This document shows, piece after piece, positions 1,510 through 3,373 of a stretch of DNA of 64,000 nt. The first letter of the stretch is position 1. Every line of letters begins with the position of its first letter. The notes beneath the pieces are model-generated. The model had not been told where the DNA came from. It did not search any database and was given only the letters and a program-made list of their open reading frames with translations. The stretch is taken from the IMG/VR virus record IMGVR_UViG_3300050196_000085, positions 5,046-69,045 of that record; one strand, written 5' to 3'. The DNA comes from a virus. The translations under genes were made by a program, and so were the position numbers.

Positions 1510-1519
1510 GTATTAGTTA

Positions 1520-1886
1520 AATCTGGTGGTTGTTACGGGACAAGGGAACCAACCCTGCTGAGCTATCCTTAGAGCTTCCCATTTGTCTCAGGCCACTTCC
1601 GCGAGGTGCCGGTCAGGTGCATTACTTCCTGACCGGCGTGAGCATGTAATGCTCCAGCACAGAAGTCATCTGTCACTGGCACGCTCCCTCTTCTCGGAGG
1701 AGCTTTCACCCCAATTCAATCGACAGGAACGGTCCCCACTGCTCCATTCTTCAGGTTGGGTCAATGGGGTTTCACACAGTCGTCTGTGTCTCTTTTCTAC
1801 CCCAACCTACTGTCGTCGCCGACAGGCTTGTCTTCTGATCCGGGCCTAACACCCATTGCAGCGAGACACCCTGTCGAAGTTTCGAG
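1520..1886 (-). ncRNA. Long highly structured RNA of unknown class
   Basis: Successive stems: CTGTCG/CGACAG, GGTTGGG/CCCAACC, ACACAG/CTGTGT, GCTCC..GGAGC, GAGCAT/ATGCTC and the 10-bp GCCGGTCAGG/CCTGACCGGC. Ends in ...CAACCACCA. Confidence 0.5.
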
Positions 1887-1954
1887 GAAGCTGCTCTAAC
1901 ACTGAGCTACCGGGGCCGTAGCCCCGTTCCCGAGTTGAACGGGCGACCTTCTTC
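1887..1954 (-). ncRNA. Circularly permuted tRNA-like element (3' half precedes 5' half)
   Basis: GAAGA-AGGTC-GCCCG-TTCAACT-CGGGA-ACGGGGC-[TACG]-GCCCCGG-TA-GCTC-AGTGTTA-GAGC-A-GCTTC; every segment has the canonical tRNA length. Confidence 0.65.
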
Positions 1955-2038
1955 TTCTGGTCTGGTGGAGTATCATGTCTGGCCAGCTAAGGGCGTATGC
2001 CCACCATGATAGCCGCTAAGCGTATCCCTCAAACCAAT

Positions 2039-2129
2039 CACGATTGGTAAAGCGGGAGGATCTCGCTTCTGCTTCAGATCCTCAAGAGCCATGCACCCGT
2101 GGGTCGGCCTATCCGCTTTATCAATCGTG
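2039..2129. ncRNA. Branched hairpin: 17-bp closing stem with internal stems
   Basis: CACGATTGGTAAAGCGG/CCGCTTTATCAATCGTG encloses GAGGATCT/AGATCCTC and a second short stem. Confidence 0.45.
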
Positions 2130-2306
2130 TTATAAATTAGATGCTGTCATCGTGAGTAGTTTCCTCATCACATCTGCCCAGCGAAGCCATTTGATTTTTA
2201 TTACAATTCACAGACCAAATCAAACTGATGGTGCTAAATCTGTGAAAGGGTCTCCCTTTATCTGGGTCTCCACCCAAATTATTCCCTTTGGTCGAGTGAA
2301 CCTAAA

Positions 2307-2529: not shown

Positions 2530-2727
2530 AACTAAGTGAGTGTTAGCGATTATTCTCGCAAATGGTGATTTATCCCCGTGCCTGTACTATAACGGCTTGG
2601 GGTGAAATGGGTGGCCGCTTCTAACGGCTAACTACATCGTTTGTTCATTAGGAGCTATCCCCCGGCTGGTTCGATCTAGGTTGTTGAACATTTTGGGGCG
2701 GAGCCCCAAACCACAAAAAGAATTCCT

Positions 2728-2821: not shown

Positions 2822-3373
2822 TTAAGCGGTTACAGTGATATTCTTGGTGGCAGTGAATCCACCATCCTGCGAAGTTGCAGTAATGACAGTCGAGCCGTTT
2901 GCCACACGAGTGACAAGACCGGTTGCCGAAACAGTGGCTTTCGTTGGATTACTGGATACCCAAGTGACATTGCCGTTGGATGCGCCGGAAGGCGTCTTGG
3001 TAATGCCAAGTTGTACAGTCGGAGCTGCAACAGTGATCGTGCTGGTTCCACCGGGAGTAATGGCAATGCCAGTCAGAACCACATAAGTGGTATCCTGAAC
3101 AACCGTGATACCAGCCATGTCGGTGATGTTGTTCGGGAACTGAAGCGTACCCGGAACAGCCAAACCAGTGCTGGCATTGACGTGATACAGGGCATCACGA
3201 ACATGTTGGAAGAAGACGTGGTTCACGTCAAATTCCAAATCAGCAATGGCTGGCTCAACATCTGCATGAACGAATTCACCAATCTTGTTGGAACCAGCAG
3301 GGAGAAGATCTCCCTTTGCCTGAATTGTAACCACTTTTGTGGTGTTGTTGAACGCTATCTGATAATTGGCCAT
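2822..3373 (-). CDS. Capsid decoration protein with an Ig-like (BIG2) domain, N4 gp17-like
   Basis: N-terminal NHVFFQHVRDALY motif. C-terminal Ig-like motif VTWVSSNPTKATVSATGLVTRVANGSTVITATSQDGGFTA. Confidence 0.85.
   Translation of the reverse strand: MANYQIAFNNTTKVVTIQAKGDLLPAGSNKIGEFVHADVEPAIADLEFDVNHVFFQHVRDALYHVNASTGLAVPGTLQFPNNITDMAGITVVQDTTYVVLTGIAITPGGTSTITVAAPTVQLGITKTPSGASNGNVTWVSSNPTKATVSATGLVTRVANGSTVITATSQDGGFTATKNITVTA

What the first reader, a model, noticed from the sequence alone, without database searches (positions are those of the whole stretch)
1520..1886. Long, densely paired RNA directly downstream of the permuted tRNA, with a pseudoknot or switch
Seen in sequence: at least seven stems in ~370 nt. 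The 10-nt loop AAGUAAUGCA of the perfect 10-bp hairpin (1608-1637) is complementary over 7 nt to GCAUUAC (1646-1652). GCAUUAC is otherwise folded in the hairpin GAGCAU-UAC-AUGCUC, so the two structures are partly exclusive. The unit ends in CAACC-ACCA, with GGUUG upstream. Inference: this may be a large ornate phage ncRNA in which the permuted tRNA forms an integral domain. I could not match it to RNase P, tmRNA, group I/II introns or known ribozymes.
Basis: partly seen in the sequence, partly recalled or inferred. Interest (0 to 1): 0.6.

Follow-up and report, generated by a model that had tools for sequence, protein, structure and literature searches.

The report
Orphan RNA behind sealed tRNA mimic
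This gene-free stretch of an N4-like phage is probably the tail of a roughly 510-base non-coding RNA module that starts with a sealed, back-to-front tRNA look-alike, but nothing I could run shows that it has one elaborate conserved fold, and no relative of it was found.

Summary
The sequence features are real. They lie on the minus strand of a 73-kb N4-like phage. They include a perfect 10-bp hairpin, whose loop has a 7-nt complement in a competing 6-bp hairpin, many other stems, and a 3' CAACC-ACCA. They are weaker evidence than they look. Folding is better than shuffles (z -3.5 to -4.0), but 5 of 30 control windows from the same genome score as well. Only local hairpins are well defined, and the loop complement is near chance.

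No Rfam family matches 1520-1886. No homologue was found in phage, viral, metagenome or genome collections.

What does hold:
- The stretch has no recognisable protein gene.
- The mimic's anticodon-stem strand overlaps its first bases.
- Leader, mimic and this stretch (about 2032-1510) make one indel block that the nearest accessible relative lacks. That block lies between two RNA modules shared with that relative.
- The mimic matches a model of 25 phage sealed tRNA mimics (48 bits). It lacks their D-loop GG, anticodon hairpin and basal handle.

Best reading: a lineage-specific module of a phage RNA island, of YrlA (Y-RNA-like) topology with a long hairpin-rich tail. This scan had already noted sealed tRNA mimics in many other phages.

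The parts
1510..2035 (-). Whole lineage-specific block: leader, sealed tRNA mimic, the finding, and an A/U-rich spacer. The nearest accessible relative (L005) has 0 nt here.
   Evidence: Window 2121-2033 aligns with L005 10011-10091 and has the same fold. Window 1509-1426 aligns with L005 10093 onward. GC is 0.549 against 0.47-0.49 in the neighbours.
1972..2010 (-). Leader hairpin (AUCAUGG...ACAUGAU) around a small GGGC-AUAC-GCCC hairpin.
   Evidence: MFE of the block. Predicted only.
1892..1949 (-). Sealed, circularly permuted tRNA-like core. Order: AGGUC, T arm (4 bp plus G.A), acceptor stem of 6 bp plus G.A closed by C(UACG)G, U8 A9, D arm with loop AGUGUUA (no GG).
   Evidence: Model R1, built from 25 other phage loci, scores 48.4 bits, E 1e-10. 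Rfam YrlA scores 22.1 bits, below its gathering score of 69. Acceptor hairpin pair probability is 0.96-0.99.
1884..1891 (-). 3' strand (GCUUCCUC) of the anticodon-stem-like stalk. It pairs with 1957-1950 (GAAGAAGA): 4 bp, a C.A mismatch, then 2 bp. It overlaps the first three bases of the finding.
   Evidence: Rfam YrlA alignment and base-by-base reading. RNAfold does not predict this stalk.
1950..1957 (-). 5' strand of that stalk, inside a (GAA)3 run. One metagenome contig lacks 3 nt here.
   Evidence: table 4: 3 nt left out at 1948 in run X8.
1810..1877 (-). Domain with two competing folds: the long hairpin CGACAGG...CCUGUCG (1877-1819), or the small hairpin CUGUCG-GCGA-CGACAG (1825-1810, P 0.78).
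1752..1809 (-). Hairpin domain UAGGUUGGG/CCCAACCUG (P 0.80-0.88), holding ACACAG-ACGA-CUGUGU at 1789-1774 (P 0.99).
1640..1703 (-). Three local hairpins: GCUCCUC/GAGGGAGC (1703-1683); CCAGU.ACAGA/UCUGU.GCUGG (1679-1654, P 0.6-0.85); GAGCAU-UAC-AUGCUC (1654-1640, P 0.69).
1608..1637 (-). Perfect 10-bp hairpin with the 10-nt loop AAGUAAUGCA. Loop bases 1625-1619 are complementary to 1652-1646.
   Evidence: I21; P 1.00.
1524..1556 (-). 3' end: small hairpin AGGG-UUGGUU-CCCU (P 0.73), then UGUCCCGUAACAACC and the single-stranded tail ACCA. In the fold of the whole block this strand pairs with the block's 5' end (2035-2023).
   Evidence: P 0.73 and 0.82. The terminal duplex of -11.3 kcal/mol is not significant (P 0.09-0.17).

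Best explanation
The 367 nt are the 3' body of a discrete non-coding module of about 510 nt (about 2035-1524, minus strand). The module sits in the tRNA/ncRNA island of an N4-like phage.

Layout of the module:
- A short leader hairpin.
- A sealed tRNA look-alike of YrlA (Y-RNA-like) topology. Its acceptor stem is closed by UACG, so it cannot be charged. Its strands leave through the anticodon stem.
- About 360 nt that fold mainly into a row of stable local hairpins.
- A helix followed by ACCA at the 3' end.

Inferred life cycle:
- It is transcribed from the minus strand together with tRNA-Arg and the hammerhead upstream.
- RNase P cuts at the next tRNA-like unit (about 1509).
- 3' exonucleases trim back to the helix-plus-ACCA end.
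- The product is a stable RNA that displays a tRNA-shaped domain.

Inferred function: occupying a tRNA-binding factor. This could be a host Ro60/Rsr-type protein, a tRNA-modifying or processing enzyme, or a tRNA-cutting defence nuclease. The tail would serve as a stabilising, nuclease-resistant body rather than as one intricate conserved fold.

Shown here: the stretch is non-coding, the block is discrete, the tRNA-mimic core is real, the mimic runs directly into the tail, and local hairpins are present. Inferred: transcription, processing, stability and function.
For: - Context: N4-like RNAP genes, a 3,768-aa ORF and a 73-kb record. There are 2.3 kb without a recognisable protein gene, holding tRNA-Arg and a hammerhead core, all on the minus strand.
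- The core matches an independent model of sealed phage tRNA mimics at 48.4 bits. That family's sealed acceptor stem covaries strongly: 4 to 11 of 17 sequences changed on both sides in seven of its eight pairs. One family member aligns full-length to Rfam YrlA at E 4.5e-5.
- Stalk bases 1891-1884 overlap the finding.
- The block 2032-1510 is absent from the relative L005. It is flanked by module M, which keeps its fold through changed helices, and by a shared tRNA-like unit.
- The block is richer in GC than its neighbours.
- Stable local hairpins have P 0.7-1.0.
- The minus strand folds 13.6 kcal/mol better than the plus strand.
- In the ensemble the block's ends pair, leaving an ACCA tail.
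Against: - There is no homologue of 1520-1886 anywhere I could search, so there is no evidence of selection on any helix.
- Folding z-score and helix counts lie within the range of ordinary windows of this genome.
- The terminal pairing is not significant.
- The mimic lacks the D-loop GG that is invariant in 17 of 17 aligned family members. It also lacks their anticodon hairpin and basal handle, so it may be decaying.
- The (GAA)3 run of the stalk is polymorphic.
- No TROVE/Ro60 gene is in the phage.
- No RNA data exist.
- One indel block need not be one RNA.
Confidence: 0.4

Rival explanations
1. It is one large RNA with a defined tertiary fold. The tRNA mimic is a domain. The loop 1625-1619 forms a pseudoknot or a switch with 1652-1646. 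The paired termini make an acceptor-like end carrying ACCA.
For: - The loop complement of 7 nt is real, and its partner lies in a competing hairpin.
- The ends of the block pair in the ensemble at P 0.73-0.82.
- The whole block behaves as one indel.
- No shuffle out of 100 folds as well.
Against: - Long-range pairs have P below 0.5, and the predicted folds disagree.
- The z-score is ordinary for this genome.
- Terminal duplex P is 0.09-0.17.
- The loop complement is near chance.
- Repeated motifs give many exclusive helices.
- There are no homologues to test.
Confidence: 0.2
2. It is not one RNA. It is a string of separate small hairpin RNAs or processing spacers, each cut out on its own, lying between the tRNA mimic and the next tRNA-like unit.
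For: - Only local hairpins are well defined.
- Neighbouring parts of the island are small independent modules that come and go between relatives: module M and the tRNA-like units.
- Earlier notes of this scan on other N4-like islands read them the same way. These are leads, not evidence.
Against: - No tRNA-like or other recognisable processing signal lies inside 1886-1524.
- The block is gained or lost as a whole in the one comparison available.
Confidence: 0.2
3. It is a decaying remnant. A once-functional sealed tRNA mimic and neighbouring tRNA-derived sequence are drifting without function. The stems are leftovers and chance.
For: - The mimic lacks GG, the anticodon hairpin and the handle.
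- Two G.A mismatches lie at the acceptor/T junction.
- The (GAA)3 run is polymorphic.
- Short tRNA-like words occur in the tail: CCUGUCG as in the T-arm end of tRNA-Arg, and UAGCUCAG...UUGGUU near 1565-1547.
- The relative does without the block.
- Structure statistics are ordinary.
Against: - Phage genomes of this size seldom keep 0.5 kb of junk.
- The acceptor hairpin with its UNCG loop and several perfect 6-10-bp hairpins are intact.
- GC is raised.
- The same sequence, without a single substitution, lies in contigs of several leaf-litter runs, though these may be one population.
Confidence: 0.15
4. It is a permuted (two-piece) tmRNA-like gene. The acceptor piece comes first, followed by a coding piece with pseudoknots and a tag frame (GCA CCU GAC ... 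GCC UGA = APDRHLAEVA*, stop at 1590).
For: - The gene order (T arm and 3' acceptor strand, then 5' acceptor strand, then a long structured RNA) is that of two-piece tmRNA genes.
- A short frame that starts with GCA begins in the loop of the 10-bp hairpin.
- Earlier notes of this scan report tmRNA-like RNAs in other N4-like islands. These are leads only.
Against: - ARAGORN finds no tmRNA.
- No tmRNA family of Rfam, permuted or not, matches at E <= 10.
- There is no G3.U70 pair.
- The acceptor is sealed by four bases with no discriminator or CCA, so it cannot be opened into a chargeable end.
- A full D stem is present.
- The tag does not end in the usual LAA or VAA.
Confidence: 0.03
5. It is a group I intron, or a permuted intron-exon arrangement, in a tRNA gene. 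The 5' half of a tRNA would be followed by an intron, and splicing would yield a circular tRNA-like RNA.
For: - The tRNA 5' half ends in GCUUCCU, which is complementary, with a terminal U.G, to GGGAAGC at 1580-1574.
- GAGAC...UAAGGAUAGCUC faintly recalls the R and S elements.
- Homing-type HNH genes lie nearby.
Against: - No Rfam intron family matches at E <= 10.
- The would-be guide sequence lies about 300 nt downstream, not at the intron's 5' end.
- Only 24 nt lie between the candidate P7 strands, too few for P3' plus P8 (my reading).
- No 3' tRNA half follows the RNA.
Confidence: 0.02

Closest known systems
YrlA, the tRNA-like Y RNA of bacteria and some phages (Rfam RF02553; Chen et al. 2014, PMC4201824)
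   Same: The module order is the same: 5' stalk strand, variable loop, T arm, acceptor stem closed by a loop, U8 A9, D arm, 3' stalk strand. The RNA ends leave through the anticodon-stem position. It cannot be charged. The Rfam model aligns over its full length.
   Different: The score of 22 bits is far below the gathering score of 69. The basal Ro-binding helix is not formed: two non-standard pairs among its six aligned pairs. No TROVE/Ro60 gene is in the phage. YrlA is about 100-120 nt long, whereas here about 360 nt follow the stalk.
Uncatalogued phage family of sealed, permuted tRNA mimics in tRNA arrays
   Same: Same core with a UNCG-type tetraloop on a 6-8-bp acceptor stem. Ours scores 48.4 bits against a model that does not include it. 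It lies in a phage tRNA/ncRNA island.
   Different: Those RNAs are about 130-150 nt. They open between the D arm and a complete anticodon hairpin. They sit on a covarying stem P1 with conserved flanks (GGYGUAG ... UACUU ... UGUUCC). All keep the D-loop GG. Ours has none of these four features and carries a long 3' tail instead.
Stable tRNA-like RNAs of phage tRNA regions (T4 species 1 and 2 = rnaC/rnaD; T5 RNA1 and RNA2). From my own knowledge and notes of this scan; not checked here.
   Same: Non-decoding RNAs encoded among phage tRNA genes. They are thought to be released by tRNA-processing enzymes and to end in CCA. Their function is still unknown.
   Different: They are 125-145 nt long, with ordinary (not permuted) acceptor ends.
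GOLLD and ROOL, large ornate RNAs of phages and prophages (Rfam families)
   Same: The setting: a non-coding RNA of several hundred nt next to tRNA genes in a phage.
   Different: No match at E <= 10. Those RNAs have deep alignments with covariation, and none exists here. This is a resemblance of place only.

Membership tests
YrlA (RF02553) | Permuted tRNA-like domain: T arm, loop-closed acceptor stem, D arm, with the ends leaving through the anticodon-stem position | tested here: met
   Full-length alignment to the model. Base-by-base reading.
YrlA (RF02553) | Score at or above Rfam's gathering threshold (69 bits) | tested here: not met
   22.1 bits; E 0.15 over 2.6 kb and 0.028 over 0.5 kb.
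YrlA (RF02553) | Basal helix that binds Ro60/Rsr | tested here: not met
   The aligned outer helix has two non-standard pairs among its six aligned pairs. Its 3' strand, CGACAGG, has perfect partners elsewhere.
YrlA (RF02553) | Ro60/Rsr (TROVE) gene nearby | tested here: not met
   PF05731 finds nothing in the 73-kb record. The control genomes do give hits. A host-encoded or very divergent partner cannot be excluded.
   48.4 bits, E 1e-10, model positions 1-59. Caveat: the family was collected with a pattern derived from this very sequence.
   The D loop here is AGUGUUA.
   The position holds CCACCAGACCAGAAGAAGA, which forms no hairpin. No partner for a P1 strand was found. The AUACU-adjacent bases pair locally, 2010-1972.
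tmRNA, one-piece or permuted (RF00023, RF04321, RF01849-51) | tRNA-Ala-like acceptor with G3.U70 and a free CCA end; model match | tested here: not met
   ARAGORN finds none. No Rfam match at E <= 10. Pair 3-70 is C-G. The acceptor is sealed by UACG.
tmRNA, one-piece or permuted | Tag reading frame ending in a degradation signal | tested here: inconclusive
   A frame APDRHLAEVA* exists, but it is short, atypical and expected by chance.
Group I intron | P3-P7-P8 catalytic core and a guide sequence at the 5' end | tested here: not met
   No Rfam match at E <= 10. Threading the core by eye fails (see full report).
RNase P RNA, GOLLD, ROOL, other large Rfam RNAs | Match to the family's covariance model | tested here: not met
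   Nothing in 1520-1886 at E <= 10, except chance-level miRNA/sRNA rows of 12-15 bits.

The most novel reading that the evidence does not exclude
The block 2035-1524 is a new kind of large phage RNA. A sealed tRNA-shaped domain is built into a body of about 500 nt whose 5' and 3' ends pair into an acceptor-like stem carrying ACCA. The molecule would present two tRNA-like faces at once. It could bridge or trap tRNA-handling host factors, such as Ro60-type surveillance, the CCA-adding enzyme, RNase P, or anticodon nucleases of anti-phage defence.
Probability: 0.12. Interest if true: 0.65.

Novelty: new variant of a known kind. Interest (0 to 1): 0.3.

Why it matters
Phage tRNA regions carry many unexplained tRNA-shaped RNAs. 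Sealed tRNA mimics of the Y-RNA kind appear to be widespread in phages, yet their partners and functions are unknown. This copy is unusual in three ways. It has the true YrlA topology. It has no Ro60 gene in its phage. It is fused to a long tail that ends in helix-plus-ACCA. If the tail proves to be a conserved, folded part of one RNA, it would be a new architecture for tRNA mimicry, and a handle on what these mimics bind. As it stands it is a single orphan sequence whose structure statistics are ordinary, so its value is as a lead, not as a result.

Tried and rejected
Searches that found nothing:
- blastn of the 2.3-kb island against 50,697 phage records: no match.
- blastn and nhmmer against 133 fetched viral loci (1.2 Mb): only the tRNA-like parts match.
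- Whole records of 5 N4-like relatives: only chance words.
- Exact 18-20-mers from the RNA: viral contigs 0 hits; metagenome contigs 2 hits with unrelated flanks, so chance; genome contigs 0 hits.
- A specific sealed-tRNA pattern: 0 hits in viral and genome contigs.
- Flanking proteins: no close relatives in viral contigs beyond L005/L015 and L003, none in metagenome contigs, and only distant ones in cultured phages.
- Searching the protein database with the spurious 88-aa ORF across the RNA, hoping for relatives' gene calls: nothing.

Routes that were blocked or uninformative:
- Sequencing runs: no RNA holder was listed.
- The four leaf-litter DNA runs I laid carry the same phage, with no substitutions in 1520-1886, so they give no covariation.

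Ideas tested and dropped:
- A 195-nt tandem repeat suggested by three 20-mers (D1) did not hold up in alignment.
- Homology of the RNA's last 100 nt to L005 is marginal (P 0.03), so I dropped it.
- A 'handle' like that of the phage mimic family could not be found.
- The terminal closing helix is not significant.
- The tmRNA, group I intron, RNase P and GOLLD/ROOL readings are rejected. Reasons are in the rival explanations and the membership test.

Full report
**Setting.** The window is bases 5046-69045 of a 73,268-bp virus record judged 99% complete. It has N4-type RNA polymerase II genes interrupted by HNH genes, a DNA polymerase and a 3,768-aa ORF of virion-RNAP size, so it is an N4-like podovirus. 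DNA runs that hold it are leaf-litter metagenomes. Between an Ig-domain gene (2822-3373, minus) and a 201-aa gene (ending at 501, minus) lie 2.3 kb without any ORF that matches Pfam or PHROGs. On the minus strand this stretch holds:
- tRNA-Arg(UCU) at 2804-2731;
- a hammerhead core at about 2392-2307 (27 bits, below Rfam's threshold; by eye it is a type I hammerhead with stem I GGUUAU/AUAACC);
- several tRNA-like pieces;
- the permuted tRNA and the finding.

**The observation.**
- The 10-bp hairpin lies at 1637-1608 with loop AAGUAAUGCA (I21).
- The 7-nt complement GCAUUAC lies at 1652-1646.
- The competing hairpin GAGCAU-UAC-AUGCUC lies at 1654-1640.
- The 3' CAACC-ACCA lies at 1532-1524, with GGUUG at 1554-1550.
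- The MFE of 1886-1520 is -142.6 kcal/mol, with 14 helices of 4 bp or more and 63% of bases paired.

**Is it more than chance?** Against dinucleotide shuffles it is: z = -4.0 with none of 100 shuffles as stable, and -3.5 in my rerun with 60 shuffles. The same test on 30 control windows of 367 nt from this genome (15 places, both strands, mostly coding) gave mean z -2.07, sd 1.5 and minimum -5.8. Five of the 30 reached -3.5 or lower. The plus strand of the target itself gives -2.95. The target is therefore not exceptional for this genome.

A count of perfect Watson-Crick helices, which needs no energy model, says the same. There are 20 of 6 bp or more, against 13.1 +/- 3.5 in shuffles (P 0.04), and 20% of control windows reach 20.

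In the partition function only local hairpins are well defined:
- 1637-1608, P 1.00;
- 1789-1774, P 0.99;
- 1809-1752, P 0.8-0.9;
- 1825-1810, P 0.78;
- 1654-1640, P 0.69.
Long-range pairs stay below about 0.5, and the MFE, centroid and MEA structures differ. The motif pairs CGACAG/CUGUCG and GGUUG/CAACC each occur twice. This produces several mutually exclusive or crossing 7-8-bp helices. It looks like a 'switch' but is equally what repeated words give by chance. By my estimate, a 7-nt loop complement within a few tens of bases is expected about once in ten such RNAs.

**Known families.** Rfam 15 finds nothing in 1520-1886 at gathering thresholds, at E <= 10 over 2.6 kb, or at E <= 10 over 0.5 kb with laxer filters. 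The only relevant row is YrlA over 1966-1866 (22.1 bits against a gathering score of 69). It covers the permuted tRNA and the first 20 nt of the finding. ARAGORN finds no tmRNA.

I tried three other readings by eye.
- Group I intron. GCUUCCU at the end of the tRNA 5' half is complementary, with a terminal U.G, to GGGAAGC at 1580-1574. But that is 300 nt downstream rather than at the 5' end. Only 24 nt separate the candidate P7 strands. No 3' exon follows.
- RNase P RNA. GUGAAAGCUCC and ACAGA...GGAGCAUUA recall CR-I and CR-V, but they lie 50 nt apart and sit in local hairpins.
- Permuted tmRNA. The gene order fits and a frame APDRHLAEVA* exists. But there is no G3.U70 pair, and the acceptor is sealed by four bases with no CCA. 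A full D stem is present.
I reject all three.

**The permuted tRNA and its relatives.** A scan of IMG/VR used the pattern T-loop, 13-15 nt, UNCG, 6-8 nt, UAGCUCAG, and returned 120 loci. In 28 matches (26 distinct core sequences, 25 of them used for the model) the bases on the two sides of the tetraloop pair over 6-8 bp. These are the same sealed, back-to-front tRNA. In an alignment of 17 of them, seven of the eight acceptor pairs show changes on both sides in 4-11 sequences, so the family is real.

Most members have more than the core. They carry a complete anticodon-like hairpin (often with GUU) 5' of AGGUC. They also carry a variable, covarying stem P1 that closes the RNA between the D arm and the anticodon arm, and conserved flanks (GGYGUAG, UACUU, UGUUCC). 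One member aligns full-length to YrlA at 33.6 bits, E 4.5e-5. None reaches an Rfam threshold.

A covariance model of the 59-nt core was built from 25 of these loci without our sequence. It hits window 1949-1892 at 48.4 bits, E 1e-10, and finds nothing comparable in 12 N4-like relatives.

Our copy differs from the family in four ways:
- its D loop (AGUGUUA) lacks the GG that is invariant in the family;
- it has G.A at 7-66 and at 49-65;
- the anticodon-hairpin position holds the unpaired CCACCAGACCAGAAGAAGA;
- I found no P1 or handle.
Instead its strands leave through the anticodon stem: 1957-1950 GAAGAAGA pairs with 1891-1884 GCUUCCUC (4 bp, a C.A mismatch, 2 bp). That is the true YrlA topology. 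The phage has no TROVE/Ro60 gene. One contig of a leaf-litter run lacks one GAA of the (GAA)3 in this stalk.

**Is the tail tied to the mimic?** Two things say yes. First, the stalk's 3' strand overlaps the first bases of the finding (1886-1884), and no spacer or processing signal lies between them. Second, there is the comparison with the nearest accessible relative (IMGVR_UViG_3300016657_000022, loci L005/L015; neighbouring proteins are 80-82% identical).
- Our 2121-2033 aligns with L005 10011-10091 (P 0.002 against shuffles). Both fold into the same three-way junction, with the closing helix and one arm changed on both sides.
- Our tRNA-like unit 1509-1426 and everything down to about 703 align with L005 10093 onward.
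- In L005 these two modules are adjacent (GAGAUUGGUAUA|GCCGUGUAGCUC). In our phage about 520 nt lie between them: the leader, the mimic, the finding and a 13-nt A/U-rich spacer.
- The block is richer in GC (0.549) than its neighbours (0.47-0.49).

When the block is folded as a whole, its ends pair: 2035-2032 with 1531-1528 (P 0.73) and 2028-2023 with 1542-1537 (P 0.82). This leaves ACCA as a 3' tail. It is an attractive acceptor-like picture. But the duplex (-11.3 kcal/mol) is matched by 9-17% of control segment pairs, so I do not rely on it. One indel block is also not proof of one RNA.

**Homologues of the tail.** None were found. See Tried and rejected for the list. The four runs I could lay carry the same phage without substitutions in the stretch. 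The decisive covariation test could therefore not be run.

**Reading.**
- Most likely (0.4): a lineage-specific module of the phage's RNA island. It is a YrlA-type sealed tRNA mimic with a hairpin-rich tail of about 360 nt ending in helix-plus-ACCA. It would be co-transcribed with tRNA-Arg and the hammerhead, and freed by tRNA-type processing. The proposed function is to present a non-chargeable tRNA shape to a tRNA-binding host factor. That function rests on what is known of YrlA (Chen et al. 2014, PMC4201824). It also fits the anti-defence character of this early region, which earlier notes of this scan describe; I did not test that here.
- Rivals: one truly ornate RNA with a pseudoknot or switch (0.2); a string of separate hairpin RNAs (0.2); a decaying remnant (0.15); tmRNA-like (0.03); intron (0.02).

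**Verdict.** This is an orphan variant of a known kind (phage tRNA mimics of the Y-RNA type). It is a modest lead until relatives or RNA data are read.

Noticed in passing
window 2033-2121 (minus) and L005 10011-10091: This is a conserved RNA module of about 90 nt. A long closing helix encloses two hairpins. Both the closing helix (AAAGCGG/CCGCUUU versus AUGGCCG/CGGCCAU) and one arm (GAGGAUC/GAUCCUC versus GUGGGU/ACCCAC) changed on both sides between the two phages. It matches no Rfam family.
   Followed up: partly
L005 10093-10213: The relative phage has a tRNA-shaped RNA with a normal acceptor stem, D arm, T arm and GCCA end, but about 60 nt in place of the anticodon arm. It is the positional homologue of our unit 1509-1426, whose anticodon arm is lengthened by only a few pairs.
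   Followed up: partly
L016-L135, e.g. L089 1872-1994, L133 3824-3978, L064 4627-4779: There is a widespread phage family of sealed, permuted tRNA mimics on a covarying basal stem with conserved flanks (GGYGUAG, UACUU, UGUUCC). Many have a GUU anticodon-like loop. They often stand in tandem with shorter units that keep the flanks but lack the tRNA part. They are not in Rfam at gathering score, and the best YrlA score is 33.6 bits.
   Followed up: partly
L059 5117-5375 (same sequence in L108): Here two tRNA-like units are chained: T arm, loop-closed acceptor, D arm, mini anticodon hairpin, T arm, UACG-closed acceptor, D arm. More structured RNA follows.
   Followed up: no
L089 1418-1490: This is a 73-nt 'mini tmRNA' consisting only of the tRNA-like domain. 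The acceptor with GGGG...CUCCACCA and the T arm are joined by a 10-nt loop where the 310-nt message part would be. It scores 65 bits against Rfam tmRNA.
   Followed up: no
window 2140-2186 (minus): This may be a decayed second copy of the hammerhead. CUUCGCUGGGCAGAUGUGAU-GAGGAAAC... lies exactly 195 nt downstream of the live ribozyme's CUUCGCUUUUCAAAGGUUAU-CUGAUGAG. It has G in place of the essential C3 and no CGAAAC. A third 20-mer copy lies another 195 nt on (1991-1972). Alignment of the whole 195-nt units shows no further similarity.
   Followed up: partly
window 1948-1957: A (GAA)3 run in the stalk of the tRNA mimic is polymorphic. One contig of run X8 lacks 3 nt here. No other difference from the window was seen in four leaf-litter runs.
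   Followed up: no
window 2597-2607 and 1704-1714: UUGGGGUGAAA in the finding (1714-1704) is an 11-nt perfect complement of UUUCACCCCAA further up the island (2607-2597). About 0.6 such pairs are expected by chance in 2.3 kb.
   Followed up: no
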